From NCBI GenBank assembly GCA_964348885.1, contig CAYGEK010000001.1, positions 10,255 through 74,254 on the forward strand: DNA of 64,000 nt, in the 5' to 3' direction. This DNA comes from an uncultured Candidatus Saccharibacteria bacterium (GTDB taxonomy: Bacteria > Patescibacteriota > Minisyncoccia > UBA6257 > WO2-44-18). The translations under genes and the position numbers were made by a program. Positions 528 through 33,738 of the stretch are shown here, piece by piece (within the stretch, counting starts at the first letter, position 1; the number at the start of each line of letters is the position of its first letter). The notes under the pieces are model-generated. The model did not search any database. It was not told where the DNA came from and saw nothing but the letters and a program-made list of their open reading frames with translations.

Positions 528-1352
528 TTAATTGTTAAGACTTTTTTGCAAATTCTCAAATCGCCGGATTGAGAGATCTAGGGATATTTTATCGCTATCA
601 ATGCCAATAAACCTTCTTCCATTTACATAAGCTGCTATCCCGGTCGTAGAACTGCCAGTGAATGGATCTAGTACGAGGTCGCCTTTATTAGTGCTTGCCA
701 AAACAATTCTATTCAATAAAGCGAGTGGCTTTTGAGTTGGATGTTTGCCGACGGTTTTCTCTGAAGGTTTCGGCGTGCCGATAGACCACACGGAGCGCAT
801 TTGCTTGCCTGGCTTTTTAAAAACATCTTCTGGCCATTCACCCAATTTCATAAGTTTATAATTAAAAATATGCTTAGCTTTTTCTTCCTTTCTCGCCCAA
901 ATTAATGTCTCGTGGCTTGCAGTAAAGTACCGGCCACTCAAATTAGGCGAAGCGTTTGGCTTAAACCAAGCAACGTCATTTAAAATTTTATAGCCTGCTA
1001 ATTGCAACGAATATCCACACTGATAAATGGAATGATAGGTGCCACTTATCCAAATTGTGGCGCTAGATTTAAGCGCCTCTCGACAGGCTTTAATCCAATT
1101 TTGATGAAAATTAAAATCATTAAATAGACCCTTGCTCTTATCCCAGTCCCCTTTATTAACGCTCACTCTTTTGCCAGCATGCAAAGAGAAGCCATTATTT
1201 GATAAGAGGTAAGGAGGATCGGCAAAAATCATATCTACGGAGTTCTTTGGAAAATCTTTCAGAAATTCAAAACAGTCTGCGAGGTAAAGCTTGAATGCAC
1301 CGTCCTGGCTTTCGTAGTAAGGCTTCATTTGGGCGTTCAATGGATCGATCAA
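528..1352 (-). CDS. DNA methyltransferase (beta-class N6-adenine/N4-cytosine MTase; motif IV DPPY precedes motif I FTGSSTTG)
   Basis: 274-aa ORF containing DPPY and FxGSGTT-like FTGSSTTG motifs in beta-class order. Typical M-R operon arrangement with the downstream REase. Confidence 0.9.
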   Translation of the reverse strand: MIDPLNAQMKPYYESQDGAFKLYLADCFEFLKDFPKNSVDMIFADPPYLLSNNGFSLHAGKRVSVNKGDWDKSKGLFNDFNFHQNWIKACREALKSSATIWISGTYHSIYQCGYSLQLAGYKILNDVAWFKPNASPNLSGRYFTASHETLIWARKEEKAKHIFNYKLMKLGEWPEDVFKKPGKQMRSVWSIGTPKPSEKTVGKHPTQKPLALLNRIVLASTNKGDLVLDPFTGSSTTGIAAYVNGRRFIGIDSDKISLDLSIRRFENLQKSLNN

Positions 1353-1423
1353 TTATTGATCAGATATGAATACCGATCAATAAGAACGATTCCATCCACC
1401 ACCGTAAGTACCGTCGCCCAGTA

Positions 1424-2611
1424 TTATTCCCCTTCGTAGACTTTTTTGAGCTCAGCCAGATCAAATTTTTTCATCTTGAGAAACGCCTGGGTAACACGGC
1501 CGATCTGATCAGGCGTGCCTTTGGCCATCATCTCATCCATAGCATCCGGCACGATCTGCCAGGAGACGCCGTATTTATCCTTCAGCCAGCCGCACTGCCC
1601 TGCCTGCCGCGTCCGGCCGGCCTTCCATTCACGCTTGAGCCACTTTCGGCCAAACCCAGTTTTCAATTTTTGCTCTCGATCAACCGCGGCTTGTCGAGTT
1701 GGAAACTCTTCATAATGTATAACTTGGGTCGGCTTAAAATTTTTCGTATACTCTGCCCCAGCGCCAGACTCATGCTCTCGCCAACGCTTTTTAATGTCTT
1801 GGGTTTGGCCGATGTACATAGAGCCGTCACCACAAAGAAGCACATAAACATAAAAAGTGTCCGGCCGCGGCGCAGGCAGGTCCGATTCCGGAACCGCGGA
1901 AAGCTTTTCCCAGTAGTAATCAATCTCCTGCTGGTCTTTGCAGTGGACCATCAGCGAAACTCCTTCGTTGAACGCGAATGCGTGCGGCTGGGCGCTTTCC
2001 ATGGCCGCAAACCACTGATTTCCAAGCATGAAGTCGGCGAACATGACATTCCCTTCCTTATCCGGCTCCATCCCTTTCGGATAGCGGGCAGTGGTGCCAC
2101 GTTTTGAATTTTTAAAAACTGATACCCAAAAATCAATCGCTTCGTCCGCCTTCCCGACCCCGGCCTTGGTAAATAAAAGCGACGGGACGATCATCGGGCG
2201 AGGCTCGCCTTTCGGATTGGTCAGAATAAGTTGCCAGGAAACGCCGTATTTATCCTGAATCCAGCCGTACCACTCGCTGAAAGGATACTTCTGAAGCGGC
2301 ATCAACGCCTGCCCTCCCGGGGAAAGCTTGGTCCACAGCTCATCAAGATGCGCTTTGGCATCCTTATCTTGTGACGGATCAAAATTCACGAAGAAAGAAA
2401 TGGACGGATTAATTTTGAAATACGGGCCCGCGCTGATCAGGGTGAAGTCGTGATCCTCAATCGTCATGTCCACCACATCCACCGAGCCTGACGGCGTATT
2501 ATTAAGGACGTATTTACCGTTTATCTTCGCGTTCCGGAATGCCGACACATAAAACTCCGCCGCCTCCCCCGCCTGCGTATCAAACCATAAATGAGTGGTG
2601 ATCTTATTCAT
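1424..2611 (-). CDS. Tandem PhnB-like / 3-demethylubiquinone-9 3-methyltransferase-like (VOC fold) protein with an in-frame GIY-YIG nuclease domain inserted in the second repeat
   Basis: Two repeats end in ...WYGWIQDKYGVSWQLIL and ...CGWLKDKYGVSWQIVP. Between YYWEKLSAVPES and QCGW lies a roughly 96-aa insert FYVYVLLCGDGSMYIGQTQDIKKRWREHESGAGA...KLKTGFGRKWLKREW matching the GIY-YIG (UPF0213/YhbQ-like) pattern. Start moved to MNKITTH (ATG 2611) because the upstream part overlaps the neighbouring gene. Confidence 0.75.
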   Translation of the reverse strand: MNKITTHLWFDTQAGEAAEFYVSAFRNAKINGKYVLNNTPSGSVDVVDMTIEDHDFTLISAGPYFKINPSISFFVNFDPSQDKDAKAHLDELWTKLSPGGQALMPLQKYPFSEWYGWIQDKYGVSWQLILTNPKGEPRPMIVPSLLFTKAGVGKADEAIDFWVSVFKNSKRGTTARYPKGMEPDKEGNVMFADFMLGNQWFAAMESAQPHAFAFNEGVSLMVHCKDQQEIDYYWEKLSAVPESDLPAPRPDTFYVYVLLCGDGSMYIGQTQDIKKRWREHESGAGAEYTKNFKPTQVIHYEEFPTRQAAVDREQKLKTGFGRKWLKREWKAGRTRQAGQCGWLKDKYGVSWQIVPDAMDEMMAKGTPDQIGRVTQAFLKMKKFDLAELKKVYEGE

Positions 2612-2627
2612 ATATTTAAATTGTAGC

Positions 2628-4415
2628 CTAAAACCCGATTGCTGAAGCTTTTTGGAGAAGCTGTATACGGGCGCGGGTGATTGGGCCGAAATATCCGGCG
2701 ACGGGCGCGATACTCTGCGACGCCTGGAAGCGCGATAAAGCGGCCTTGGTGAGCGGGCCAAAGTACCCGGTTATTAATGCTTCCGGATAATGCCCCTCGT
2801 CAATCAGAAATTCCTGAAGGTTTTTTACATCATCTCCCCTCAAGCCGCGATATAGATCTCGCGCAAAAGCGACCTCGGCCCGATTAGAGGCTTCCGGCGT
2901 GGCATCAAAAATAACCTGATCGTCTCCGGATTTTGGAGTTGCGGTCATTCTGACAATTTGAGAAAAACGGCCATAGTCATCATAAGCAAAGATGCCGTAG
3001 TGATACTTGGTACCGTTCGCCAAATTAGTATCAGTAAAGGATTTACCGTTACCGTCAAAAACCACCTCGCCGTCATTTATATTCATGGTCGCGGAGCCGA
3101 GCTTGCGGATGATCCTCACCTGAATACCGGGCTTGTCGCTAAAATCTCTCAGCCAGAAAAAGGCCACCTGCGAGTCCAACGCTTCGGTTTTGAAAATAAG
3201 AGGACGGGTCGGCGACGTCGGTAAAGTAGAGGGAGCGCCCGAAACGACAACCGGTAGCTGTTTTATTACAATCGGCTTGGGAACCGGAGCCGGGGCGGGC
3301 GCCGGAATTGGAGCTGAAGCCGAGGCGGTGGTGGTAAATTGATAATTTTTGGATACGGCGGTGCTACCCGATCCGTCACGCGCGGAGACCCGGAAATTAT
3401 ACAAACGTCCGGCGGAAAGTCCGCTAAGAGTGGCAGAGTGATCCTTACGCGAGGTATCGTCACGCCAGACAGTGCCGTAAGCGGTGGTCAAGCCATATTC
3501 TATTTTGGATTTTACGGCGATATTGGTGGTCCAGACGATAACCGCTCCGGACTCGGTGACCGATTGAACTTTGACACCGGAGATAACCGGCAAAACTTCT
3601 TCAGGCGCCGGTTCGGGTTCCGGGGTGGGTTCGGCGGGTGTTGGTTCAGGTTCAGGCTTTGGCTCAGGCTGGGATGCCGGCTCCGGCTCTAGAGTGGAAA
3701 AGTTTTTTTGCAAAGTGGTCGTCATGTTGCCGGCCTCGTCCTCGGCGATAATGCGGTAGTAATAGGTCGTATCCGAATTCAGACCGGAGACAAGGAAGGA
3801 TTGCGAGTCGGAATATTCCGAACTGACGGGAGTGGTAAAGCCGTAAGCGGAGGTTGGTCCGTATTCGATATAGGATTGCACCAATTCATCGGCGGAAAAA
3901 CTTATGGTAGCCGCGGAAAGAGTGATATCAGAAACAGTAATCTCGGAAATAGCGGGCGGATCCTCATCGGCCAGGACTGGCTCGGAGGCAGTCGTAGCCG
4001 TGTAATCCGGAGAATAGCCGGCGTTACCCGCTTCATCCGTCACAATGATGCGGAAGTGAAGCGTGGTATTCGGGGTCAGACCGGAAATAGTTTTGGTGTG
4101 ACTGGTAGCGAGCGCGGCATCGGAATCCGTAACTGATCCGTACTGGGTGGTTGGGCCATACTCAATCCGACCGCGCGAAGGTTCGTCGGTCGTCCACATA
4201 ATCGTTACGCTGGTCGGCTCCGCCGACACTACCGCCCAGGACACAATCATAGGCGAAGTCGTGTCCGATTCCTGAACAGGGTCCGCGGTCATTTCTTCCG
4301 GAGGCGTGGCGACTCCTCCGTCTACCGGAACCTGAGCCAGTACAAGTGATGCGCCGAATAAAGCCCCAAGGACTGCCAGAATGGCTGCCGAGCGGATCAT
4401 ATTAAGATTTGTCAT
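2628..4415 (-). CDS. Secreted/anchored protein with three fibronectin-III-like repeats, a Pro/Glu-rich linker (PEPEPKPEPEPTPAEPTPEPEPAPEE) and a C-terminal peptidoglycan-binding (PG_binding_1-like) domain
   Basis: N-terminal hydrophobic segment MTNLNMIRSAAILAVLGALFGASLVLAQ. Repeated ~90-aa Thr/Ser-rich beta-rich modules (IEYGPT...YRII/FRVS). C-terminal YFGPLTKAALSRFQ...GYFGPITRARIQ repeats. Start chosen at the first Met preceding the signal-like segment. Confidence 0.7.
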   Translation of the reverse strand: MTNLNMIRSAAILAVLGALFGASLVLAQVPVDGGVATPPEEMTADPVQESDTTSPMIVSWAVVSAEPTSVTIMWTTDEPSRGRIEYGPTTQYGSVTDSDAALATSHTKTISGLTPNTTLHFRIIVTDEAGNAGYSPDYTATTASEPVLADEDPPAISEITVSDITLSAATISFSADELVQSYIEYGPTSAYGFTTPVSSEYSDSQSFLVSGLNSDTTYYYRIIAEDEAGNMTTTLQKNFSTLEPEPASQPEPKPEPEPTPAEPTPEPEPAPEEVLPVISGVKVQSVTESGAVIVWTTNIAVKSKIEYGLTTAYGTVWRDDTSRKDHSATLSGLSAGRLYNFRVSARDGSGSTAVSKNYQFTTTASASAPIPAPAPAPVPKPIVIKQLPVVVSGAPSTLPTSPTRPLIFKTEALDSQVAFFWLRDFSDKPGIQVRIIRKLGSATMNINDGEVVFDGNGKSFTDTNLANGTKYHYGIFAYDDYGRFSQIVRMTATPKSGDDQVIFDATPEASNRAEVAFARDLYRGLRGDDVKNLQEFLIDEGHYPEALITGYFGPLTKAALSRFQASQSIAPVAGYFGPITRARIQLLQKASAIGF

Positions 4416-4728: not shown

Positions 4729-5265
4729 CTATTTCAGCAACTCGGCAAACTCTTTTTTTACCTTTTCCAACTTCGGATTGATCACCACTTCGCAGTAGGG
4801 ATTGCCGGGATTTTTGGCGAAATAATCTTTGTGATACTCCTCCGCTTCCCAAAACTTATCCAGCGGTTGAACTTCCGTCACAATCGGCGCGCCTGCCTTG
4901 CTTGAGGCGTTCAATGCCGAGATAAAATCCCCCGCTTCTTTCTGCTGCTCCGGCGTGGTGTAAAAAATCACCGAGCGATACTGCGAGCCCACATCGGCAC
5001 CCTGACGATTTTTGGTGGTCGGGTCGTGCGAGCCGAAGAAGATTGTGAGCAGTGTTCGATATTCCACAAACGCCGGGTCGTATTCAACACGCACTACTTC
5101 CGCGTGGCCCGTGCCGCCGCCACAAACCTCTTCATAGGTTGGATTTGGCTTTGTGCCGCCCGCATAACCCGGTAATACCGAACTGATGCCTTTGAGCATT
5201 CTAAAAACCGCCTCCGTGCACCAGAAGCATCCCCCGCCGAATACTGCTACTTCATTCTTAATCAT
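4729..5265 (-). CDS. msrA: Peptide methionine sulfoxide reductase MsrA
   Basis: 178 aa; GGGCFWC active-site motif and overall MsrA pattern (FWEAEEYHKDYF). Confidence 0.92.
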   Translation of the reverse strand: MIKNEVAVFGGGCFWCTEAVFRMLKGISSVLPGYAGGTKPNPTYEEVCGGGTGHAEVVRVEYDPAFVEYRTLLTIFFGSHDPTTKNRQGADVGSQYRSVIFYTTPEQQKEAGDFISALNASSKAGAPIVTEVQPLDKFWEAEEYHKDYFAKNPGNPYCEVVINPKLEKVKKEFAELLK

Positions 5266-5689: not shown

Positions 5690-5869
5690 TGAACCTCGGC
5701 TTACCGAAAGAAAATCTTTTTGGACCGATGCTAAGAAATCTCGGCGTGCAGGCGCGGGAATTCGGCGCGCTGATTATTGAATACCGGTATCACATCGGTA
5801 TCGGCCTAGCTATTCTGCTCGTAATTCTTTTTATCGCCTACCGAAGAAGCCACTCCAGTTATTGAGCCG
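5690..5869 (+). CDS. Possible 59-aa small membrane protein (below ORF-track cutoff)
   Basis: Manual translation MNLGLPKENLFGPMLRNLGVQAREFGALIIEYRYHIGIGLAILLVILFIAYRRSHSSY; one TM segment. No strong RBS identified; overlaps the 3' end of the convergent dehydrogenase gene by about 10 nt. Confidence 0.25.
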
Positions 5870-6998
5870 GAACTTTCGTGTGCACCCGATAGATCGCGCC
5901 CGCGTGGTCGTCGGTCACAAACATCTCTCCGCCCGGACGTACCAGGATGTCCACCGGCCGGCCGAGGATCTTGCCGTCATTCATAAACCCGGTCATAAAA
6001 TCCTCCGTGCCGAGGTAGTTTCCCTTAGCGTCAATTTTTAACCGCACTATCTTATAGCCAACCGGCACAGAGCTGTTCCAGGAGCCGTGCTGAGCGACCA
6101 ACAGATTATGCCAATATTCTTCCGGCCAGCCTTCTTCCGGAATAAAAGCCAATCCGAGCGGGGCGGAATGCGCCTGCAAATCTATAAAGGAAGGAGTTTC
6201 AAACGGCGCCATGCAGGGGTTCCGGAAATAAGTATTCTTATCAAATTCGGTGTCATGAATATTTTTACCGAAGCAGGTCGGCCAGCCGTAGTTCTTGCCA
6301 CGCTCAATGATGTTCACTTCGTCCGGCGGCAGATCGTCACCCAGCCAGTCCCGGCCCATCTCGGTGGCGAACATTCTGCCTTGCACATAATCCCAGGCGA
6401 AAAACACGGAGTTACGCAGACCGCGCGCTACCTCCTGAAAATCACTGCCGTCTTTCTTCATAGAAAAGATCTTGGCGCGCATCGGATCCTCTTCGTGGCA
6501 GACGTCACAGGATGAGCCGATGGACACGTAAAGCCGGTCATCCGGACCGAAGCCGATGGTGCGGGTAAAATGCCGTCCGCCGTCCGGTAATTTTGCCACC
6601 GTCTCCATCTCGCCCTCGGAATAAAGCGGCACGCGGGAGATCTTATCGGATTCCGCCACGTAAAGCATGGTGGCCATCTGCGGATCCAGCGCCAATCCGT
6701 GCGGCTTATTCAGATTCTTAAAAATATCTATCTTGTTGGCCACTCTGCCGTTTTCCATCTCCAACATCGTCACCACGCCCTTGCTGGTGCGGCTGACCAG
6801 AAAATTACCCAGTCCGTCCTGCGCCATTACGCGCGCGCCCGGCAGGCCGTCCGCGAAAAGCTCTACTTCAAAAAAATCTGGCGCGGTCAGTCGCGCGACC
6901 GGCGAGTTCGTACCCATGTCCGGGCCGGGCCAAAAAGCGACAAAAGCTATCACCGACACGGTCACCGCCGCGATTATCAGATTGGAGATTAATTTCAT
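5859..6998 (-). CDS. PQQ-dependent sugar dehydrogenase-like (soluble aldose sugar dehydrogenase / sorbosone dehydrogenase family) with N-terminal membrane anchor
   Basis: 379 aa; beta-propeller SGDH-family features (KPHGLALDP, GPDDRLYVSIGS, NYGWP). N-terminal hydrophobic helix. Confidence 0.75.
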   Translation of the reverse strand: MKLISNLIIAAVTVSVIAFVAFWPGPDMGTNSPVARLTAPDFFEVELFADGLPGARVMAQDGLGNFLVSRTSKGVVTMLEMENGRVANKIDIFKNLNKPHGLALDPQMATMLYVAESDKISRVPLYSEGEMETVAKLPDGGRHFTRTIGFGPDDRLYVSIGSSCDVCHEEDPMRAKIFSMKKDGSDFQEVARGLRNSVFFAWDYVQGRMFATEMGRDWLGDDLPPDEVNIIERGKNYGWPTCFGKNIHDTEFDKNTYFRNPCMAPFETPSFIDLQAHSAPLGLAFIPEEGWPEEYWHNLLVAQHGSWNSSVPVGYKIVRLKIDAKGNYLGTEDFMTGFMNDGKILGRPVDILVRPGGEMFVTDDHAGAIYRVHTKVPAQ

Positions 6999-8027: not shown

Positions 8028-8420
8028 ATGACCGATTCGAAAGATCAGTACTGGCAAAAAGAGATGGACCCCGAACTGAAACGGGTGGCGAAAGATAAAG
8101 GCACCGAAGCGCCGTACACCGGAAAATATCTAAAAGAGCACGCCGATGGAACTTATCGCTGCGCCGTCTGCGGCAATCCTATCTTTGACGCCAAAGCCAA
8201 ATTTGAATCCGGCACGGGCTGGCCCAGCTTCTATGAGCCGGTCTCTAAAGACGCGGTCACCTATCACGAAGACAGAGAAATGGGCATGAGCCGCGTGGAA
8301 GTGAAATGCGGCAAATGCGACGCTCACCTCGGCCACGTCTTTGATGACGCCGTGGATCAGCCGACCGGAAAAAGATACTGTATCAACTCCGTCTGCCTGG
8401 ATCTGGAGAAGAAAAAATAA
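8028..8420 (+). CDS. msrB: Peptide methionine sulfoxide reductase MsrB
   Basis: 130 aa; two CxxC pairs (CAVCGNPIF; CGKCDAHLGHVF) and a GWPSF motif. Followed by terminator hairpin 8418..8442. Confidence 0.92.
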   Translation: MTDSKDQYWQKEMDPELKRVAKDKGTEAPYTGKYLKEHADGTYRCAVCGNPIFDAKAKFESGTGWPSFYEPVSKDAVTYHEDREMGMSRVEVKCGKCDAHLGHVFDDAVDQPTGKRYCINSVCLDLEKKK

Positions 8421-14056: not shown

Positions 14057-14220
14057 TAAGCTAGCGGCATAAGGACATAAGTAAAATTCGGCGGAGCCGA
14101 CACCTTCCGGAGCAAAAACGCCCTGATTCCCGGCCTTTGACCGGGACGTTTTTATAAGCCTGTTAAACAGCCTTAGTATTTGATATAATCACTTCCAAGC
14201 TCTTTGAATAGAGGTTGATT

Positions 14221-15000
14221 ATGTGGCTGGTAGCCTTTTTCGTGATTGCATTTATTTGTTTTCAAATAAATGTGCACTTCACTTCAATTTACTTGCACCG
14301 AGCGATGTCGCACCGGAGTATTATATTCCGGCGCGCCTTCCCCGGTCTGATTATGCGCTGCTGGCTCTGGCTTATGGCCGGTCAAGCGATGCGCTCTTGG
14401 GTAGCGGTGCACCGGAAGCACCACCAGTTTGCCGATGTTGAAGGCGATCCCCATAGCCCCTATCTTGTAGGATTGTGGCGGCTTTTTTGGAGCCACGAAT
14501 TCATCTACGCTAAAGCGGCTTCGGATCCTGAATTGCTTAAGCAGTACACACGCGGCATACCGCCGCACAAACTGGACTCCGTGCTTGAGCGCGGCCTGTG
14601 GGGACTGATTTCCGGCTTCGCGCTCTTCGGCCTCGGCTTCTGGCTCTGGCTGGGAGGCTGGCAAGGCGCGCTGACCGGCTTGTTCTGTTATCTCCTTCAG
14701 TTCCTGCTGTATCTGAAGGCGGGAGCAACGGTGAACGCGATTTGTCATATGTTCGGCTATCGGACCTTCGATGATAATCGGGCGACGAATGTCTGGTGGG
14801 CGGCCTGGCTGGTTGCCGGCGAAGGCTGGCACAACAACCACCACCATGATCTGTCCTCGCCGAAACTTAGCTATAAGCCCAGTGAGTTTGACCCTGCCTG
14901 GATCTTCATCAAGATATTGGTACTGCTCCGACTGGCCACCGTCCTCAAGACGATTAATGAAAAAGAAAGCTCGGAAAGAATAACTGAAAATCCTCACTAA
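14221..15000 (+). CDS. Membrane fatty-acid (acyl-CoA/acyl-lipid) desaturase
   Basis: Three His boxes (HRAMSH, HRKHHQF, HNNHHH). Start at the first ATG, which has a GAGG RBS. Confidence 0.85.
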   Translation: MWLVAFFVIAFICFQINVHFTSIYLHRAMSHRSIIFRRAFPGLIMRCWLWLMAGQAMRSWVAVHRKHHQFADVEGDPHSPYLVGLWRLFWSHEFIYAKAASDPELLKQYTRGIPPHKLDSVLERGLWGLISGFALFGLGFWLWLGGWQGALTGLFCYLLQFLLYLKAGATVNAICHMFGYRTFDDNRATNVWWAAWLVAGEGWHNNHHHDLSSPKLSYKPSEFDPAWIFIKILVLLRLATVLKTINEKESSERITENPH

Positions 15001-18496: not shown

Positions 18497-19066
18497 TTAT
18501 GCTCTGATTGCTTTCAAAAGCTTTGAAACCAGCTTTTTCGGGAATCCCTGCACGCTGTCCATCTCGCCCTCCATCTTCTCGATGTAGGGAGAGATTAGCG
18601 GACTTTCGCAGGTAAAACCGCCGGCGCATTGCATCACGTCGCCTTCATCGACCAGCGCGTCAATGACGTGGGCTGGCAACGGCTTGAAGAACACTTTGGC
18701 AATCGCCACGTCCGCCAGCAGATAGCGGCGAATGGAGTTATAAACAACAATCGCGCTGTAAGTGACGGAGGGATGCAGATGAGCGGACTCAAGGAACTGG
18801 TGCGCCTCGGCGAAATTGACCGGCTTGTGCCGGAACTTGCCGTTGACGGTGACAATCTGATCGGCCGTCAGCAGAATATACGGCCCGCCAAAACGCTCTT
18901 GGAGCTTTTTGCTTTTGGCTATCGCCCGAAGCATCGCCAGCACATCGGGCCGATTATCCAGGATTTCCCCCTCATCAATGTTGGCGGCGACAGCTTCAAA
19001 ACTGTAGCCCATGTCGGCAAACAACTGACGCCGCCACTTTGATTCCGAACCGAGAATCAACCTCAT
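18497..19066 (-). CDS. maf: Maf-like nucleoside triphosphate pyrophosphatase
   Basis: 189 aa; N-terminal LILGSESKWRRQL and conserved Maf core. Confidence 0.75.
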   Translation of the reverse strand: MRLILGSESKWRRQLFADMGYSFEAVAANIDEGEILDNRPDVLAMLRAIAKSKKLQERFGGPYILLTADQIVTVNGKFRHKPVNFAEAHQFLESAHLHPSVTYSAIVVYNSIRRYLLADVAIAKVFFKPLPAHVIDALVDEGDVMQCAGGFTCESPLISPYIEKMEGEMDSVQGFPKKLVSKLLKAIRA

Positions 19067-19138
19067 TCGCTTCTCCTATGAAGGTACGGGAAGAAAATAA
19101 CATAAAAGGCCCCGCGTGTCACGCGGGGCCGTATTTTT

Positions 19139-20245
19139 TTACTTCTTTTCTTCCCTGGTCGCCGAGCCGTAACCGGCCGACTCCTTATATCGCTTATCGG
19201 CAGTCTCGCCGCCAATCGCCCGATCCAGCTCCTGCCAGATCTTGGCGCCGCTCATCGCCTGCGCGTCGCCAACCGGATGATTCCGTTGACGATCGTGCAG
19301 ATTCCAAAGGGCCGCCGCGCCGACACGGGCCATTTCGTCAAAACCGTTCCAGACCGCCTCCATCGCGATGCGCGACTGCAAGGTCGTGTGCCAGATCAGT
19401 CTGAAGCCATTCCCCTTATCGTAAAGATCGTCATAGGTCGGCGGCTCTTTCTTGAACTTGGCCCGATAAGCCACCGTCCAATCCTTATTCGGAGAATAGT
19501 TGATACCAAGAATCATTTTCGGATCGTGACGGCGCATTTCCGAAACCCAGCGCTCGATCACGGCCGGATCCTGCATCGCGTCCGCCCAAAGCACCAGCGG
19601 ACGCAGGCCGTGATACTCAACATCCATGTAGCGCTTGCCGCGCTCAATGGCGTTTTCCAATCCCCCGTTCGCCGCCGTCAAAGCATCGGTGCGAACCATC
19701 AGCCGCATGGAAGTCCCGAGGGCTTCCGAAGCCATCAGCCAGCAACGAATCTTCGCTTCCATATCCTCGATGTCCACGCAGGACTTGCCGCCCAGATTGC
19801 CGCACCGGCGGGTCGCCTGATCCTCCAGATGAGCCAGGCCGACACCCATCTCATGATAGGCCCGGACCGTCTCACTGATCACGACCGGCTCAAGCGCAAA
19901 CCCCGTCTCGGCATCCACGATAGTCGGAAGCGGAAAAGCTTCGGCTACCGCGTGTCGCGCGAGCATGGTCATGCGCGTCAGATCATGGAAAGCCATGTCC
20001 GGTCGCCGCCAGGCCATCGCGCTGATGGACCAGCCGCCGATATAAACGGCGTTAAAGGCGCAGGGATTCTGGCTGTTAGCCGTCCGCTGGCGGTAGATTT
20101 CTTTGGCGATATAAGCGCCCATAGCGTCATAAACGCCCGGCGCGATAATCAAACCCTCGTCATTCAGCGTCTTGACGAACGCGTCACCCGGACGCTCATG
20201 CCGCCGAAAAATCTCCCGCATACCCGATTCGTTCTCCGGATTCAT
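19139..20245 (-). CDS. aceA: Isocitrate lyase family protein (ICL/PEP-mutase superfamily); signature reads RRCGN instead of KKCGH
   Basis: Aligns with ICL over AVYIGGW, IVDAETGF, HLEDQ...RRCGNLGGKS, VRTDAL. Own -10/RBS upstream. GC3 is roughly 65%, above background. Confidence 0.75.
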   Translation of the reverse strand: MNPENESGMREIFRRHERPGDAFVKTLNDEGLIIAPGVYDAMGAYIAKEIYRQRTANSQNPCAFNAVYIGGWSISAMAWRRPDMAFHDLTRMTMLARHAVAEAFPLPTIVDAETGFALEPVVISETVRAYHEMGVGLAHLEDQATRRCGNLGGKSCVDIEDMEAKIRCWLMASEALGTSMRLMVRTDALTAANGGLENAIERGKRYMDVEYHGLRPLVLWADAMQDPAVIERWVSEMRRHDPKMILGINYSPNKDWTVAYRAKFKKEPPTYDDLYDKGNGFRLIWHTTLQSRIAMEAVWNGFDEMARVGAAALWNLHDRQRNHPVGDAQAMSGAKIWQELDRAIGGETADKRYKESAGYGSATREEKK

Positions 20246-20341
20246 AAAAATCTCCCTAAAAGTTCTGACGCAATTATACGAATTCCCCGACGAAAAATCA
20301 AATAAAAAAACTACCCATGTTCGGGTAGTTTATTAATCGAT

Positions 20342-21970
20342 TTACTCCGCGTTTTCCGTTTCCTGGAGCAGAAGCTCCGAGTAGCCGGGAATGGTCAGAA
20401 ATTCCTCAAATTCTTCGGCGGTGATCATCTGCATGAACAACTCTTCCGCGTCTTCGTAATAGTCATCCAGAGCGGGGTCGTTGAAAGCCGCTTCTCTGAC
20501 GCGAGTCAGGTGTTTCGTAATCAGATCCAAGGTCACGGTGAAGCCATCGGCGGTCACCGCGCCATGTTTCAGCCACTGCCACAGCTGGGAGCGCGAAATC
20601 TCGGCGGTCGCCGCATCCTCCATCAGATTCTGCAGCGCCACGGCTCCGGTTCCCCGAAGCCAGTGCCACAGATAACGGATGCCGACCTCCAAATTCTTAC
20701 GGATTCCTTCCTGTGTGATCGTTCCCTGAATCGGCGCCAGCAGTGCCTCGGCTTTCGGAAAATCATCCGAGCGCGCATCCTCAATCTGATTCTTGCTCTT
20801 CATCCCGAGGTCAAAGATCTCTTTGGCCATCGGTACGAAGGCGGGATGCGCGACCCAGGTGCCGTCATGACCGGCTTTCACTTCCCTGGCCTTATCGGCT
20901 TTGAATTTCAGCTGGGCCTCGGTATTGGCCCGGATACTCTCCTTGTCGGTTCCTTTGATTGGAAGCTGAGCGGCCATTCCGCCCATCGCATGAGCGCCAT
21001 GCTTGTGACAGGTGCTGATCAGCAACTTCACATACTCGGCAAGGAACCCTTTGTCCATCGTCAGCTGTCCGCGATCCGGCAGGACAAAACGTTCATCATG
21101 CCGCAGCCGCTTGATGTAGCTGAAAATATAATCCCAGCGCCCGCAATTCAAGCCGGCGGAATATTCCCTCAGCTCGTACAAGATCTCTGACATCTGAAAA
21201 GCGGCAGGCAGAGTCTCGATCAAAGCCGTGGCCTTGATTTCTCCGGGTAGAAGGCCGAGCTTGTCGGAAGCGTACTTGAAGACTTCAGTCCAAAGACGCG
21301 CTTCTTCTCGGCTTTCCATCTTGGGCAAATAGAAATACGGACCATCTCTGCGCTTACGAAGCTCCATCGCGTTGTGAAAAATGTAGAGGCCGAAGTCGAA
21401 CAGACTGGCCGAAACGGCTTCACCGCTCACCGCCAGATGATTTTCCTCCAGATGCCAGCCGCGGGGCCGGAAAAAGAGGACGGCCGTCTGCGCGTTCAGG
21501 GCGTAGGTCTTCTTTTTTTCCTCGTCGGTATAAAGCAGATCCTTACGAATCGCCTGATAAAGATTGATCTGGCCGCTGACGATGTTTCTCCAGGTCGGAG
21601 ATTCGGAATCTTCGGCATCGGCCATGAAGACATTGGCACCTGAATTCATCGCGTTGATGACCATCTTCGCGCTGCTCGCCGGACCAGTGATCTCCACGCG
21701 CCGATCCAGAAGATGATCCGGCACCGGCCAGATCTTCCAGTTGCTACTGCGAATCTCTTTTGCGTCGGGCAGAAAGTCCGGCAGAATGCCGGCGCGGATT
21801 TTCTGCTGAGCGAGTTTTCGCGCCTCCAACACCTCCATGCGCTTCCGATTGAAGCGGCTATGAAGATCGGCGACAAAGCTGACAGCTTCGGGAGTCAGAA
21901 TGACATCCGCCGCCTCATCCAGGCCGTGCTCATTGAGCAGTTTCCGACCGAGCAGATGGATATACTGCAT
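20342..21970 (-). CDS. aceB: Malate synthase A
   Basis: 542 aa; overall match to the malate synthase A family; GGAGG RBS; terminator hairpin immediately 3'. Confidence 0.9.
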   Translation of the reverse strand: MQYIHLLGRKLLNEHGLDEAADVILTPEAVSFVADLHSRFNRKRMEVLEARKLAQQKIRAGILPDFLPDAKEIRSSNWKIWPVPDHLLDRRVEITGPASSAKMVINAMNSGANVFMADAEDSESPTWRNIVSGQINLYQAIRKDLLYTDEEKKKTYALNAQTAVLFFRPRGWHLEENHLAVSGEAVSASLFDFGLYIFHNAMELRKRRDGPYFYLPKMESREEARLWTEVFKYASDKLGLLPGEIKATALIETLPAAFQMSEILYELREYSAGLNCGRWDYIFSYIKRLRHDERFVLPDRGQLTMDKGFLAEYVKLLISTCHKHGAHAMGGMAAQLPIKGTDKESIRANTEAQLKFKADKAREVKAGHDGTWVAHPAFVPMAKEIFDLGMKSKNQIEDARSDDFPKAEALLAPIQGTITQEGIRKNLEVGIRYLWHWLRGTGAVALQNLMEDAATAEISRSQLWQWLKHGAVTADGFTVTLDLITKHLTRVREAAFNDPALDDYYEDAEELFMQMITAEEFEEFLTIPGYSELLLQETENAE

Positions 21971-22055
21971 AGATCCTCCTAAAACGAACTGGCCTTATTA
22001 TACCGATTTTTCCTAAAAAGACAAATAAAATACCCCATAAAGGGGTATTAAGTAC

Positions 22056-24317
22056 TTACATGGTCAGATCGCAGACACCGGCGACGCACGCGAGTTCGCG
22101 GGCGCCCTTGGTCTCGTCTTCCTTTTCATAGATCAGGATTCGGGAGAAATCCACCGGAGGCATTTCGGCCACCATCTTTTCGTACTGCTCTTTGGTAATC
22201 TCCTCGTAAGGCGGGAGTTCGTACACGTGCTCATCTTCCTCTAGGGGCATAAAAGACAAGCCGCCGATCACATCCCAGTTCTTATGAACCCAGGCGACAA
22301 CCTCTATCCATTCATTCTTGCCAACAGAGATCGTTGCCGAAGGATTGTGCTCGGTGTAGTTCTCTTTGAGCATCTTCCAATATTCCAGCTGATCGATCGC
22401 CAGCATGTCGTTCCGGAATTTAGAATCGGACGGGCCTTTCACCGGAAAGGACAGGACAAAATTCGTGGCCTTTTCCTCAGGCAAGCCGCCGTCAGGCAAC
22501 ATTGGGACCTTCTGATCCTTCAACATCTTGAACATGGAATCAGTGGCGGCGATGCGCACGCGACGGATATAGTATTCCGCATGCCGCGTATGAAGGCCGG
22601 AAGCGGAATCCACAAGTTGGGAAACGGTGCCGGACGGCTTCACGCAGGTGATCGCCGTAGATTCGTTGATGCCAAATCGCTCGGCATAGGTCTTGTTAAC
22701 CCGAATCGCCCGATCCCTCATCTTCCTCAGCGTCTCCGCTTTTCTCACCGCCGGGCAGTCCCACTGACCGGTGATGGAAACGCCCAACAGGCGCTCCTCC
22801 TCGCAATTCTTCCGCCATTCCTTGGAGAGATAGGGGAAATTTGTAAGGGTAGCCTGGTAAGTGCCGATGATGGTCGCGACGCGGACCTTCCGAAGAAGCG
22901 AAGCCTCGTCGTCATCCGATCGCGCGACCACCTCGGTCAGATTGCAGAACTGCTTGGATTTCAGCACGATCTCACCGCACGGATTGGTGCCGCAGAACTC
23001 CAGGTCGCGGGAAAGAATTTCCCGCCGGCGTTCCGGAACCTGAGCCAACAGGCTGGCGCGGTTAAAGATTCCGCGCTCGCCCGATCCGCTCTTCGCGAGC
23101 GAAATCCATTCGTCCAAAAACTCAATCGTCGTCGGCTTTTCCATATAAGCGACAGAGTTGTTCGCCATATGGCGCTGAGCGTGATCCTTGCTGAAGTCTC
23201 CGAACTTCGCCATCCGCATGCGATAGTCGTCCAGATCGGAAAGCGAGATCAGCGCGCTGCGCCGGACGCCTCCCATCTCCACGATCTCGCCGATCTTGCA
23301 GATTATGTCGTGAACATCAAGAGTGGTGAGTCGCCGACCCTGGCGCTTCAGAATCTTCTTTCTCGCGAATTTCATCAGATCCATCAGCGGCTTCGGGCCG
23401 GAACTTCTTCCACCCATCACCCGGAGACGCGCGCCGGCCGGACGAAGCTTGGAGTAGTCAAAATCAATATCTTCACCGGCGTACCAGGTTTCCAGGCCCT
23501 TCAGAAGCGCGTCTCCCCATCCTTCCTTACTGTCATGGACGGTGTGGGTTTTACGCTTATGACCGATCTGTCGCTTGATCATCGGCAACATGCCAACATT
23601 CTGCTCCTCAACCGAGAAGCCGACACCGGTGCCGCACATGGAAAGATACATGATCTCGGCGAAATCCTGGAGTTCCTTGGGAGCGATGAACGAGCAGTTA
23701 TAGGCGCAGACGTTAGTCTGCATAGCCGCCTTGCCCGCGCTCCACATGAGCCGCATTGACGGCATGACTTCAAGCTTCAGGATGGCATCATGAACCTCGT
23801 CGTACTCTTTCGGCAAAAGCTTTTTGCCGAGAGTGTAACGCATGAAATCCACATACCGCTGAACAGCCTCTATCCAAGTCTCGCGGCGCTTCTCTTCTTC
23901 AATCCAACGCGAGTAGCTTCTGTAAAAAACAAATTCGGACATCGGACCACGGAAATGCTTTTGACTTTCCTCAACGAGCTTTTTTACCCGTTCCGGAATA
24001 GCGTTCTCCTGCTCCCGTTTCTTTTCCCGGTCATACCGATAAAGAATGTAAGATTTCGCGGTTTTCATAAAGTCACTCAGGAGCAACGCTACCTGCACCG
24101 CGTCCTGAATTTCTTCAATGCCCGGATGGCTCTGTTTCTTATGCTTTTTGGAAATATTTTCCACGGCGGCTTCAGCCACAACTCTGGCTTTGGATTCATC
24201 ACCCTCGCCGACCGCCTGCATGGCCTTCCAGATCGCCTGAACAATCTTCTCCTGATCAAAATCAACCAAGGCGCCGTCACGCTTCTTCACTTTCGCGAAG
24301 ACCTGACTCTTGCTCAT
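22056..24317 (-). CDS. nrdJ: Class II (adenosylcobalamin-dependent) ribonucleotide reductase with N-terminal ATP-cone
   Basis: 753 aa; ATP-cone at the N-terminus, active-site NPCGEI and C-terminal CxxxxC pair (CVAGVC) as in monomeric RTPR-type enzymes; no glycyl-radical motif. Confidence 0.75.
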   Translation of the reverse strand: MSKSQVFAKVKKRDGALVDFDQEKIVQAIWKAMQAVGEGDESKARVVAEAAVENISKKHKKQSHPGIEEIQDAVQVALLLSDFMKTAKSYILYRYDREKKREQENAIPERVKKLVEESQKHFRGPMSEFVFYRSYSRWIEEEKRRETWIEAVQRYVDFMRYTLGKKLLPKEYDEVHDAILKLEVMPSMRLMWSAGKAAMQTNVCAYNCSFIAPKELQDFAEIMYLSMCGTGVGFSVEEQNVGMLPMIKRQIGHKRKTHTVHDSKEGWGDALLKGLETWYAGEDIDFDYSKLRPAGARLRVMGGRSSGPKPLMDLMKFARKKILKRQGRRLTTLDVHDIICKIGEIVEMGGVRRSALISLSDLDDYRMRMAKFGDFSKDHAQRHMANNSVAYMEKPTTIEFLDEWISLAKSGSGERGIFNRASLLAQVPERRREILSRDLEFCGTNPCGEIVLKSKQFCNLTEVVARSDDDEASLLRKVRVATIIGTYQATLTNFPYLSKEWRKNCEEERLLGVSITGQWDCPAVRKAETLRKMRDRAIRVNKTYAERFGINESTAITCVKPSGTVSQLVDSASGLHTRHAEYYIRRVRIAATDSMFKMLKDQKVPMLPDGGLPEEKATNFVLSFPVKGPSDSKFRNDMLAIDQLEYWKMLKENYTEHNPSATISVGKNEWIEVVAWVHKNWDVIGGLSFMPLEEDEHVYELPPYEEITKEQYEKMVAEMPPVDFSRILIYEKEDETKGARELACVAGVCDLTM

Positions 24318-25033: not shown

Positions 25034-25105
25034 GCCGCGGTAGCTCAGTGGTAGAGCAGACGCCTGAAGAGCGTCGTGTCGGGGGTTCAATTCCCTCCCG
25101 CGGCA
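25034..25105 (+). tRNA. tRNA-Phe (anticodon GAA)
   Basis: Manually folded cloverleaf: acceptor GCCGCGG/CCGCGGC, D-arm GCTCAGTGGTAGAGC, anticodon stem GACGC/GCGTC with loop CTGAAGA, T-arm GGGGG-TTCAATT-CCCTC, discriminator A. A TTGAAA-N16-TATATG promoter sits directly upstream. Confidence 0.85.
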
Positions 25106-28385: not shown

Positions 28386-28459
28386 TGTGCTCCCAAGGGG
28401 AATCGAACCCCTGTTTCCGCCGTGAGAGGGCAGCGTCCTAGCCGCTAGACGATAGGAGC
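28386..28459 (-). tRNA. tRNA-Glu (anticodon CUC)
   Basis: Reverse complement folds as GCTCCTA...D-arm TCGTCTAGCGGCTAGGACG...anticodon stem CTGCC/GGCGG with loop CTCTCAC...T-arm CAGGGGTTCGATTCCCCTT...TGGGAGC + A. Confidence 0.8.
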
Positions 28460-33666: not shown

Positions 33667-33738
33667 TGCACCCTGCAGGGATCGAACCTGCGACCTTTCC
33701 AATGTGAATGGAACGCTCTACCACTGAGCTAAGGGTGC
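33667..33738 (-). tRNA. tRNA-Val (anticodon CAC)
   Basis: Reverse complement GCACCCTTAGCTCAGTGGTAGAGCGTTCCATTCACATTGGAAAGGTCGCAGGTTCGATCCCTGCAGGGTGCA folds as a canonical cloverleaf. Confidence 0.85.

What the first reader, a model, noticed from the sequence alone, without database searches (positions are those of the whole stretch)
19139..21970. Glyoxylate-shunt gene pair (malate synthase A plus isocitrate lyase) with elevated GC in a reduced, CPR-like background
aceB (542 aa) and an ICL-family gene (368 aa) are adjacent in the E. coli aceB-aceA order. Each has its own promoter and RBS, with a terminator between them. Both genes are noticeably GC-richer (ICL GC3 about 65%) than neighbouring housekeeping genes. 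Organisms with the ribosomal and aaRS minimalism seen here usually lack a TCA cycle, so a glyoxylate bypass is metabolically unexpected; this suggests horizontal acquisition or an alternative role such as glyoxylate or glycolate detoxification. The ICL signature reads RRCGNLGGKS: Asn replaces the His of the canonical KKCGH motif, which may mean an altered specificity within the ICL/PEP-mutase superfamily.
Basis: partly seen in the sequence, partly recalled or inferred. Interest (0 to 1): 0.6.

Follow-up and report, generated by a model that had tools for sequence, protein, structure and literature searches.

The report
Compact isocitrate-lyase/malate-synthase pair in CPR bacterium
Two neighbouring genes in a tiny-genome (CPR) bacterium encode an ordinary malate synthase and an unusual, shortened relative of the isocitrate lyase of salt-loving archaea, which suggests that a few of these reduced bacteria keep a two-step route through glyoxylate that they were not expected to have.

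Summary
Both ORFs exist exactly as described, on the minus strand. 20342..21970 is a canonical malate synthase A: it passes the NCBIfam equivalog cut-off and is 55-58% identical to MS A of many free-living phyla. 19139..20245 fails every curated ICL, PrpB and PEP-mutase cut-off. Even so, it aligns end to end with the ~345-aa haloarchaeal-type isocitrate lyase (hhalign E 6e-39, 312 columns), the enzyme type validated genetically in Haloferax volcanii.

It belongs to a small family of about 100 sequences, found in 10 of 185,579 species genomes, whose identifiable members are CPR/Patescibacteria. In 12 of 14 informative loci the gene sits next to a malate synthase, and the two gene trees broadly mirror each other.

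The Asn-for-His change in the catalytic loop (RRCGN) is real. It is perfectly coupled to a Glu-to-Asp change at the position of ICL Glu285: 89 sequences have N+D, and 9 deep-branching sequences have H+E.

The raised GC is mild. It recurs in every relative and follows host GC, so recent horizontal transfer is not supported.

The most likely function is a glyoxylate-forming lyase, probably isocitrate lyase, feeding malate synthase. The substrate and its source in a TCA-poor genome are untested. This is a new variant of a known kind, of moderate interest.

The parts
20342..21970 (-). Malate synthase A gene (542 aa)
   Evidence: TIGR01344 scores 703.3 bits against a cut-off of 594.5. All three Pfam MS domains are present. 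It scores 568 bits against Bacillus anthracis MS 3cux over residues 20-531, with the motifs RPRGWHL, YLPKMES, NCGRWDYIFS and MEDAATAEISR conserved. It is 55-58% identical to MS A of many free-living phyla.
19139..20245 (-). Compact ICL-like lyase gene (368 aa), a CPR-restricted offshoot of the haloarchaeal-type short isocitrate lyases
   Evidence: PF13714 scores 79.7 bits and PF00463 28.4 bits. Every NCBIfam equivalog falls below its cut-off. hhalign of the family against Haloferax ICL gives E 6e-39 over 312 columns, end to end. BLASTP against Haladaptatus AceA gives 28% identity over residues 18-360. The AF2 model has pLDDT 92. The family holds about 100 members, with a sharp score gap to everything else.
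19784..19810 (-). Codons for the catalytic gating loop R146-R-C148-G-N150-L-G-G-K154 (canonical ICL: K-K-C-G-H-x-G-G-K)
   Evidence: Read directly from the sequence. Across 98 family members Cys148 and Gly149 are invariant, 89 have Asn150 and 9 have His.
19580..19588 (-). Codons W220-A-D222, equivalent to ICL W283-x-E285; Asp replaces the conserved Glu
   Evidence: Taken from the alignments. D222 occurs in exactly the 89 sequences that have N150, and Glu in the 9 that have His.
19478..19501 (-). Codons N249-Y-S-P-N-K-D-W256, the ICL-type NxSPxxxW substrate-binding motif (ICL: N313-C-S315-P-S317-F-N-W)
   Evidence: N249, S251, P252, N253 and W256 are invariant in the family. The motif aligns to NCSPSFNW of ICL and has no counterpart in PrpB.
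21997..22024 (-). Promoter-like site TTGTCT-16-TATAAT upstream of the MS gene, followed by an AGGAGG ribosome-binding site
   Evidence: 10 of 12 consensus positions match; sequence. This is a pattern match only.
20308..20331 (-). Terminator-like hairpin (10-bp stem, then TTTTTATTT) between the MS and ICL-like genes
   Evidence: This is a pattern match only.
20273..20301 (-). Promoter-like site TTGATT-17-TATAAT upstream of the ICL-like gene, followed by a GGGAG ribosome-binding site
   Evidence: 10 of 12 consensus positions match; sequence. This is a pattern match only.
19108..19130 (.). Strong GC-rich hairpin (10 pairs, 9 of them G-C) with T-runs on both strands, ending the ICL-like gene

Best explanation
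The locus encodes a two-enzyme glyoxylate module that has been inherited vertically in a small group of CPR (Patescibacteria) bacteria.

The 368-aa protein is a shortened, lineage-specific descendant of the haloarchaeal-type isocitrate lyase, in the ICL branch of the ICL/PEP-mutase superfamily. It most likely cleaves isocitrate, or a very close 2-hydroxy-dicarboxylate or tricarboxylate, into glyoxylate plus succinate. It would do this by the usual Mg2+- and Cys-dependent retro-aldol chemistry. Malate synthase A, encoded immediately upstream, then condenses the glyoxylate with acetyl-CoA to give malate.

In the main clade, which includes this window, the catalytic loop has been remodelled from Cys-Gly-His plus Glu to Cys-Gly-Asn plus Asp. 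The two changes are coupled and look compensatory.

Shown here: the identity of malate synthase; full-length homology of the partner to haloarchaeal ICL; retention of the metal-binding, catalytic-Cys and glyoxylate-pocket residues; conserved adjacency and co-inheritance with MS; and the coupled N/D switch.

Inferred: the lyase activity, isocitrate as the substrate, and the flow of glyoxylate to MS.

Unknown: where the substrate comes from. It may be a partial TCA cycle elsewhere in the genome, or uptake from a host or the environment.
For: 1. MS is canonical.
2. The family profile aligns end to end with Haloferax ICL: hhalign probability ~100%, E 6e-39, 312 columns. PrpB matches the N-terminal half only (186 columns, E 6e-23) and M. 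tuberculosis ICL1 gives E 2e-20. BLASTP against Haladaptatus AceA, which lies in an aceA-aceB operon, covers residues 18-360. That AceA is 86-87% identical to Haloferax ICLs. Deleting aceA in H. volcanii abolishes growth on acetate (PMC7746861).
3. An NJ tree puts the family inside the ICL branch: 82% bootstrap against the PrpB/PEPM-like proteins, and 100% for the family itself.
4. Active-site residues listed for M. tuberculosis ICL in PMC8099091 and PMC9026967 have invariant counterparts. These are Y68 (Y89), W72 (W93; Trp in 91 of 98 members, Tyr in 7), D83 (D108), D111 (D153), H139 (H180), E141 (E182), C148/G149 (C191/G192), R185 (R228), N249/S251 (N313/S315) and T287 (T347), together with W220 and W/F285. 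The last two correspond to ICL W283 and F345, which from memory distinguish a glyoxylate pocket from a pyruvate pocket.
5. MS is adjacent in 12 of 14 informative loci, with differing outer flanks and in both gene orders. The two gene trees have broadly the same shape.
6. N150/D222/K154 against H150/E222/R154 covary perfectly in 98 sequences, which implies selection on a working active site.
7. The AF2 model is confident (pLDDT 92). It matches ICL, DMML and OAH structures at TM about 0.7.
Against: - No enzyme assay exists for any member of the family.
- The protein fails all curated ICL cut-offs: NF011645 scores 47 against 562 and TIGR01346 34 against 276. The validated haloarchaeal type fails them too.
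- The His of KKCGH and the Glu285 equivalent are both replaced in this clade. ICL Ser317, Ile346 and Phe318 are replaced by the invariant or near-invariant Asn253 and His286 and by Lys254, which makes the succinate-side pocket more polar than in any known ICL.
- The N-terminal half scores higher against PrpB, DMML and OAH than against ICL.
- No citrate synthase, aconitase or isocitrate dehydrogenase is seen on the 82-kb contig, and CPR bacteria generally lack a TCA cycle.
- Two family members (L001, L005/L019) have no MS within 8-10 kb.
Confidence: 0.6

Rival explanations
1. The enzyme is a glyoxylate-forming lyase whose substrate is no longer isocitrate. The coupled His-to-Asn and Glu-to-Asp changes, together with the family-specific Asn253, Lys254 and His286, would have retuned the distal pocket. 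The enzyme would then cleave a different 2-hydroxy acid, for example a host-derived 3-substituted malate, into glyoxylate plus another acid, with malate synthase still consuming the glyoxylate.
For: - The polar substitutions lie exactly at the positions that contact the succinate moiety in ICL.
- The gene remains adjacent to MS.
- No source of isocitrate is visible on the contig.
Against: - The deep subclade keeps the canonical His and Glu but already has Asn253 and His286, and it is still paired with MS. The pocket changes therefore predate the N/D switch.
- Asn and Asp are conservative replacements that preserve hydrogen bonding.
- No candidate substrate is suggested by any conserved neighbouring gene.
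Confidence: 0.2
2. The protein is not functionally tied to malate synthase. It would instead carry out one of the other activities of the superfamily, such as oxaloacetate acetylhydrolase or decarboxylase, 2,3-dimethylmalate lyase or methylisocitrate lyase, or PEP-mutase-type chemistry.
For: - The best PDB sequence and fold hits are DMML 3fa3 and OAH 3lye.
- The best NCBIfam hit is prpB.
- Some sources label related proteins 'oxaloacetate decarboxylase'.
Against: - Those hits cover only the N-terminal half. The C-terminal half aligns only to ICL-type proteins, through the motifs NxSPxxxW and xxT.
- The residues that form the methyl pocket of PrpB (F186, L234, P236, from memory) are replaced by the ICL-type W220, W285 and T287.
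- PEP mutases lack the catalytic Cys, which is invariant here.
- MS adjacency in 12 of 14 loci is hard to explain otherwise.
Confidence: 0.1
3. The pair is a recently acquired foreign glyoxylate-shunt cassette, as the first reader proposed on the basis of GC content.
For: - The ICL-like gene is among the GC-richest in the window, at z about 2.
- The window's MS is as close to MS A of free-living phyla (55-58%) as to several CPR copies, and closer than to the most divergent ones (34-38% in L018, L020 and L021). Free-living MS A also nests inside the CPR spread in an unrooted NJ tree.
Against: - The order RNR-MS-ICL-like-LOG(-PGI) is conserved in relatives at 58-81% identity.
- The MS and ICL-like trees have broadly the same shape.
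- Both genes exceed their locus GC in all 13 loci and follow host GC from 0.40 to 0.63.
- The flanking RNR and Maf genes have the same GC3 as MS.
- The ICL-like family is found only in CPR-type contigs, so no donor exists in the databases searched.
Confidence: 0.07

Closest known systems
Haloarchaeal-type isocitrate lyase (AceA of Haloferax volcanii and its relatives, ~345 aa; aceA-aceB operon)
   Same: - The alignment is end to end: hhalign E 6e-39 over 312 columns at 28% identity.
- Both have the compact size and lack the insertions of bacterial ICL.
- Both carry the C-terminal S-x-G-(F/Y)-(G/S) tail, the NYSxxxxW motif and the xxT motif.
- Both are encoded next to a malate synthase.
- Both fail the curated ICL HMM cut-offs in the same way.
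   Different: - The catalytic loop reads RRCGN rather than KRCGH, and W-A-D replaces W-P-E.
- DAETG replaces DCDTG (Haladaptatus AceA; DADTG/DADDG in the other short ICL-like proteins).
- Asn253, Lys254 and His286 replace Ser, Phe and Ile.
- The partner is malate synthase isoform A, not the haloarchaeal isoform H.
- The gene order is MS then ICL, not aceA then aceB.
- The host is a CPR bacterium.
Canonical bacterial isocitrate lyase (E. coli AceA, M. tuberculosis Icl1; PF00463, TIGR01346)
   Same: - Both have the Mg2+-binding acidic residues, the EDQ motif, the catalytic Cys-Gly, R-T-D, the W of W-x-E, the NxSPxxxW motif and Thr347.
- Both have a Trp after the (S/G)-G.
- The gene order relative to malate synthase A is the same as in E. 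coli aceBA.
   Different: - Identity is only 21-24%.
- The protein is about 60 residues shorter. It lacks the insertion after SGW and the long insertion after RTDA.
- It scores far below the curated cut-offs.
- His193 is replaced by Asn, Glu285 by Asp and Ser317 by Asn.
Uncharacterised 'short ICL-like' proteins of Dehalococcoidia, Betaproteobacteria and others (316-391 aa), some of which IMG labels isocitrate lyase
   Same: - They are the next-nearest sequences, at 135-207 bits, matching over the full length.
- They share the architecture and the C-terminal tail.
- They fall in the same ICL-branch clade.
   Different: They keep the canonical KRCGH, W-x-E, NYSSSFxW and F-I-T-L motifs. They are about 25-31% identical. 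They are not restricted to CPR.
2-Methylisocitrate lyase PrpB, 2,3-dimethylmalate lyase and oxaloacetate acetylhydrolase
   Same: They give the best raw sequence and PDB hits for the N-terminal half. They share the TIM-barrel fold and the K/R-R-C-G loop.
   Different: The C-terminal half does not align. The pocket residues are of the ICL type, not the MICL type. Those enzymes are not encoded next to a malate synthase.
Malate synthase A (E. coli AceB, B. anthracis 3cux)
   Same: The 542-aa protein is a straightforward member. It passes TIGR01344 and scores 568 bits against 3cux over the full length.
   Different: Nothing notable, apart from its occurrence in a CPR genome.

Membership tests
Malate synthase A (TIGR01344) | Whole-protein score above the curated equivalog cut-off | tested here: met
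   703.3 bits against a cut-off of 594.5. The MS G models score only 18-28 bits.
Malate synthase A (TIGR01344) | Three-domain architecture (MS_N, TIM barrel, MS_C) with conserved catalytic motifs | tested here: met
   PF20656, PF01274 and PF20659 all score above their gathering thresholds. RPRGWHL, YLPKMES, NCGRWDYIFS and MEDAATAEISR are identical to 3cux in the alignment. The assignment of catalytic roles to these motifs is from memory.
Canonical isocitrate lyase (TIGR01346 / NF011645 / PF00463) | Score above the curated cut-offs | tested here: not met
   TIGR01346 scores 33.9 against 275.9 and NF011645 47.1 against 562. PF00463 scores 28.4 against 26, but only over residues 104-191.
Canonical isocitrate lyase (TIGR01346 / NF011645 / PF00463) | K-K-C-G-H signature in the gating loop | tested here: not met
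   The loop reads R-R-C-G-N. Cys and Gly are invariant; Asn occurs in 89 of 98 family members and His in 9.
Canonical isocitrate lyase (TIGR01346 / NF011645 / PF00463) | Mg2+ and substrate residues (Mtb numbering: Y89, W93, D108, D153, E182, R228, N313, S315, T347) | tested here: met
   Y68, D83, D111, E141, R185, N249, S251 and T287 are invariant in the family; W72 is Trp in 91 of 98 members and Tyr in 7. The residue list comes from PMC8099091 and PMC9026967.
Canonical isocitrate lyase (TIGR01346 / NF011645 / PF00463) | His193, Glu285 and Ser317 | tested here: not met
   They are replaced by Asn150, Asp222 and Asn253.
Haloarchaeal-type short isocitrate lyase (Haloferax AceA) | Full-length homology with the same compact architecture | tested here: met
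   hhalign gives probability ~100%, E 6e-39, query 22-362 against template 22-334 of 345. BLASTP gives E 1e-34 over residues 18-360.
Haloarchaeal-type short isocitrate lyase (Haloferax AceA) | Canonical K-R-C-G-H loop and W-x-E | tested here: not met
   The window protein has RRCGN and WAD. The deep subclade of the same family has R-A-C-G-H and W-A-E.
Haloarchaeal-type short isocitrate lyase (Haloferax AceA) | Encoded next to a malate synthase | tested here: met
   This holds in the window and in 11 further independent loci. Haladaptatus has aceA-aceB. The MS isoform differs: A here, H in haloarchaea.
Haloarchaeal-type short isocitrate lyase (Haloferax AceA) | Isocitrate lyase activity | not testable with these tools
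   This needs an enzyme assay or complementation. Genetic evidence exists only for H. volcanii aceA (PMC7746861).
2-Methylisocitrate lyase (PrpB, TIGR02317) | Score above the cut-off and full-length alignment | tested here: not met
   96.3 bits against 354.4, over residues 21-208 only. hhalign covers 186 columns of the N-terminal half.
PEP mutase / phosphonopyruvate hydrolase | Score above the cut-off; these enzymes lack the catalytic Cys of the lyases | tested here: not met
   TIGR02319 scores 56 against 420 and TIGR02321 24 against 374. Cys148 is invariant. The statement that mutases lack the Cys is from memory.
Candidate Phyla Radiation / Patescibacteria host | Genome context typical of CPR and relatives named as CPR | tested here: inconclusive
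   The contig carries housekeeping genes plus DUF5671 and DUF5654, and related loci carry DUF5652 and DUF5658. The nearest species genomes are labelled Candidatus Saccharibacteria or Candidatus Paceibacterota, but several record titles (Gammaproteobacteria, Woesearchaeota, Methanosarcinales) are clearly unreliable placeholders. The window has no rRNA, so no marker-gene phylogeny was run.

The most novel reading that the evidence does not exclude
The CPR family is a lyase with a previously unseen catalytic arrangement: Cys-Gly-Asn paired with Asp, plus an extra polar Asn-Lys/His pocket. It would release glyoxylate from a substrate other than isocitrate, probably a host-derived organic acid. Together with malate synthase, this would give TCA-less episymbionts a self-contained two-step route from that acid plus acetyl-CoA to malate.
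Probability: 0.2. Interest if true: 0.7.

Novelty: new variant of a known kind. Interest (0 to 1): 0.45.

Why it matters
CPR/Patescibacteria are usually described as fermentative organisms that lack the TCA cycle and depend on hosts for most metabolites. I found no paper in the searchable library that describes a paired ICL/MS module in them. One paper reports only an ICL without MS in pooled groundwater CPR.

A conserved, co-inherited ICL-type lyase plus malate synthase in a handful of CPR lineages points to carbon handling at the level of C2-C4-C6 acids. That could bear on what these cells take from hosts, and on how to cultivate them.

For enzymology, the family offers a natural experiment on the ICL catalytic loop. 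His-to-Asn is perfectly coupled to Glu-to-Asp, with both states present in one small family. It also ties the little-studied haloarchaeal short ICLs to a wider bacterial group. Curated HMMs currently fail to name these proteins, so metagenome pipelines that rely on such models may under-call the glyoxylate shunt.

Tried and rejected
- Curated HMM libraries do not classify the 368-aa protein beyond superfamily level (Pfam, NCBIfam).
- PDB sequence and Foldseek searches put DMML, OAH, MICL and ICL at nearly equal distance (TM about 0.7). They could not discriminate on their own.
- The AFDB fold library was unavailable.
- A first bootstrapped tree run timed out and was replaced by a faster NJ implementation.
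- Cluster look-ups returned no organism names for the window's own proteins or its close relatives.
- I looked for conserved functional partners other than MS around distant family members (L013, L015, L016, L020, L021). Nothing recurred. A glutamate dehydrogenase in L016, and a GlcD-like FAD oxidase with a cupredoxin in L001 and L006, are single-lineage neighbours.
- Glyoxylate detoxification was considered and set aside, because an ICL-type lyase produces glyoxylate.
- Misbinning or contamination was considered and set aside. The pair sits mid-contig among CPR-type housekeeping genes, in conserved synteny across several assemblies.
- Whole-genome presence of citrate synthase, aconitase and IDH could not be checked.
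- The 2001 paper describing the Haloferax ace operon is not held in the library.
The same regions matched the corresponding PDB entries (1igw, 1mum, 1f61).


Full report
**The observation**

Two minus-strand ORFs occupy exactly the stated coordinates: 20342..21970 (542 aa) and 19139..20245 (368 aa). They are separated by 96 bp.

That spacer holds a terminator-like hairpin (20331..20308), then TTGATT-17-TATAAT (20301..20273) and a GGGAG ribosome-binding site. The upstream gene has its own TTGTCT-16-TATAAT (22024..21997) and AGGAGG. A strong GC hairpin (19130..19108) closes the pair. These are consensus matches, not evidence of function. The region holds 7 promoter-like sites against 3.6 +/- 2.1 in shuffles.

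The motif RRCGNLGGKS is present at residues 146-155.

**GC content**

The ICL-like gene has GC 0.590 and GC3 0.710. The mean over 68 window ORFs is 0.512 +/- 0.037 for GC and 0.584 +/- 0.072 for GC3, so this gene sits near the top of the distribution. The MS gene (0.552/0.676) is indistinguishable from its neighbours, RNR (0.539/0.679) and Maf (0.540/0.674).

**The malate synthase**

This protein is ordinary.
- It passes the NCBIfam malate synthase A equivalog: 703 bits against a cut-off of 594.5.
- It has all three Pfam MS domains.
- It aligns over its full length with Bacillus anthracis MS (3cux, 568 bits) and keeps the conserved motifs.
- It is 55-58% identical to MS A from Bacillota, Acidobacteriota, Myxococcota, Bacteroidota and others.

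**The partner protein**

Curated models place the partner only at superfamily level. PEP_mutase scores 79.7 bits. ICL scores 28.4 bits over residues 104-191. Every NCBIfam equivalog (prpB, ICL, CPEP mutase, phosphonopyruvate hydrolase) falls far below its cut-off.

PDB sequence searches hit DMML, OAH and MICL best, but only over the N-terminal ~200 residues.

An AlphaFold2 model built on a 46-sequence family alignment is confident (pLDDT 92.2, pTM 0.90). It matches DMML, ICL and OAH structures about equally, at TM about 0.7 and 18-25% identity.

**A distinct, CPR-restricted family**

A search of 5.8 billion proteins returned about 100 full-length relatives. They are 42-81% identical and 355-390 aa long. 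All come from metagenomes or MAGs. Scores then drop sharply from 258 to 90 bits.

In 185,579 species genomes only ten carry the family (L012-L021). Some are labelled Candidatus Saccharibacteria or Paceibacterota. Several other record titles are clearly placeholder misnomers.

The window's contig (ENA ERZ27247820 k141_30731, 82 kb) carries compact housekeeping genes, together with DUF5671 and DUF5654; related loci carry DUF5652 and DUF5658. This fits a CPR genome. No citrate synthase, aconitase or isocitrate dehydrogenase is seen on it. It is only a fraction of the genome, however.

**Link to malate synthase**

An MS gene lies immediately beside the ICL-like gene in the window and in L003, L006/L017, L007/L018, L012, L013, L014, L015, L016, L020, L021 and L067. 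That is 12 of 14 informative loci.

The outer flanks differ among the more distant loci. The gene order is inverted (ICL-like then MS) in the deepest subclade. The conserved unit is therefore the pair itself. L001 and L005/L019 lack an adjacent MS.

NJ trees of the two proteins have broadly the same shape. (window, L014) is recovered in both trees, as are L003 and L012 among its close relatives, L018 deeper, and L020/L021 deepest. This indicates co-inheritance.

Closer relatives also share the order RNR-MS-ICL-like-LOG(-PGI).

**Horizontal transfer**

The ICL-like gene exceeds its locus GC in all 13 loci examined, and the MS gene does so in all 11 of those that carry one. Both still track host GC from 0.40 to 0.63. 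The raised GC is therefore a property of the genes, not a sign of recent import.

One point stays open. The window clade's MS is 55-58% identical to free-living MS A, but only 34-38% identical to the MS of L018, L020 and L021. Free-living MS A also nests inside the CPR spread in an unrooted NJ tree. Either fast evolution or an old replacement could explain this.

**Placement in the superfamily**

A full HMMER scan of 1.84 billion representatives gave six core-family representatives. Below them came a tier of full-length matches, 316-391 aa long and scoring 135-207 bits. These proteins carry KRCGH, W-x-E, NYSSSFxW and F-I-T-L. IMG labels some of them isocitrate lyase, and they occur in Dehalococcoidia and Betaproteobacteria.

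One of them looked haloarchaeal. It led to a Haladaptatus plasmid locus annotated aceA (343 aa) followed by aceB. That AceA is 86-87% identical to Haloferax isocitrate lyases.

The comparisons with the window protein and its family are as follows.

| Comparison | Result |
|---|---|
| Window protein against Haladaptatus AceA (BLASTP) | residues 18-360, 28% identity, E 1e-34 |
| Family profile against Haloferax ICL (hhalign) | probability ~100%, E 6e-39, 312 columns, end to end |
| Family profile against E. coli PrpB (hhalign) | 186 columns, N-terminal half only, E 6e-23 |
| Family profile against M. tuberculosis ICL1 (hhalign) | 282 columns, E 2e-20 |

The haloarchaeal AceA fails the same curated cut-offs in the same pattern. 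Failing them therefore says little about function.

H. volcanii aceA is required for growth on acetate, and the enzyme has been characterised (PMC7746861).

A bootstrapped NJ tree gives 100% support for the CPR family. It gives 82% for a clade that joins the family with the short ICL-like proteins, the haloarchaeal AceA and canonical ICL, to the exclusion of the PrpB/PEPM-like proteins.

**Active site**

Invariant family residues map onto the M. tuberculosis ICL active-site residues listed in PMC8099091 and PMC9026967.

| Family residue | M. tuberculosis ICL residue |
|---|---|
| Y68 | Y89 |
| D83 | D108 |
| D111/E113 | D153/E155 |
| H139 | H180 |
| E141-D-Q | E182-D-Q |
| C148-G149 | C191-G192 |
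| R185 | R228 |
| W220 | W283 |
| N249/S251 | N313/S315 |
| T287 | T347 |

These assignments rest. The Trp after the (S/G)-G (W72, ICL W93) is present in 91 of 98 members. From memory of the MICL literature, W283, F345 and T347 distinguish ICL from methylisocitrate lyase. Here they are W220, W/F285 and T287.

The differences from ICL are:
- K189-K190 become R-R.
- H193 becomes N150.
- E285 becomes D222.
- S317 becomes N253.
- F318 becomes K254.
- I346 becomes H286.

Across 98 members, N150, D222 and K154 occur together in 89. H150, E222 and R154 occur together in the 9 deep-branching sequences. There are no mixed states. This perfect coupling argues for a functional, compensated remodelling of the catalytic loop rather than decay. 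The deep subclade shows that the family began with the canonical His/Glu arrangement while already paired with MS.

**Interpretation**

The most likely reading (about 0.6) is a vertically inherited two-gene glyoxylate module. A compact ICL of haloarchaeal type produces glyoxylate, probably from isocitrate. MS A converts it, with acetyl-CoA, to malate.

What remains inferred is the substrate and its source.
- A retuned substrate specificity is the main rival (about 0.2), because the polar replacements line the succinate side of the pocket.
- A function unrelated to MS (about 0.1) is disfavoured by the evidence above.
- Recent horizontal transfer (about 0.07) is likewise disfavoured.

**Novelty**

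Searches of the held literature found no description of an ICL/MS pair in CPR bacteria. One groundwater CPR study reports an ICL but no MS in pooled genomes (PMC12114108).

The finding is a new variant of a known kind. The pathway enzymes are familiar, but they sit in an unexpected host group. The ICL subfamily is divergent, invisible to curated HMMs, and carries a coupled change at two catalytic-site positions.

Noticed in passing
window 528..2761 (-), continuing off the left end of the window on the same contig: A low-GC (0.40) N6/N4 DNA methylase gene (528..1352) lies next to a GIY-YIG/3-dmu-9_3-mt fusion (1424..2761). Just outside the window are an AIPR abortive-infection gene and an S24 peptidase. 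Together they look like a small mobile defence islet.
   Followed up: no
window 14215..15000 (+), 4729..5265 (-), 8028..8420 (+), 5859..6998 (-): The window holds several oxygen-linked genes, unusual for a supposedly fermentative CPR genome. They are a fatty-acid desaturase, MsrA, MsrB and a GSDH/TrAA12-type dehydrogenase. Relatives also carry a cupredoxin and a GlcD-like FAD oxidase nearby. This hints at an oxic lifestyle, which could be relevant to the glyoxylate module.
   Followed up: partly
window 22056..24317 (-): A B12-dependent (class II) ribonucleotide reductase with an N-terminal ATP-cone. It scores 275.8 bits on the RTPR model, below the cut-off of 340. It lies directly upstream of MS in five related loci. 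This is probably plain synteny rather than a functional link.
   Followed up: partly
window 18497..19066 (-): The Maf gene is inserted between the ICL-like gene and LOG only in the window and in its closest relative L014. Other relatives have ICL-like directly followed by LOG.
   Followed up: no
L018, L020, L021 (malate synthase genes next to the ICL-like gene): These CPR malate synthases are only 34-38% identical to the window's MS, and they lack a detectable MS_N domain. Free-living MS A is 55-58% identical to the window's MS. Whether this reflects fast evolution or an MS replacement in the window clade was not resolved.
   Followed up: partly
L016 7939..9288 (-): A glutamate dehydrogenase lies 0.7 kb downstream of the MS/ICL-like pair in one distant relative. 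It is the only neighbouring gene in any locus that touches TCA-type intermediates, and it is seen in a single lineage only.
   Followed up: no
P0246-P0297: A broad, apparently uncharacterised group of 316-391-aa 'short ICL-like' proteins occurs in Dehalococcoidia, Betaproteobacteria and others. They have canonical KRCGH, WxE and NYSSSFxW motifs, and they fail the curated ICL cut-offs as the haloarchaeal enzyme does. Glyoxylate-shunt calls that rely on those HMMs may miss them.
   Followed up: partly
window 25034..25105 (+), 28388..28459 (-), 33667..33738 (-): Three tRNA genes are the only Rfam matches in the window. No rRNA or riboswitch was found.
   Followed up: no
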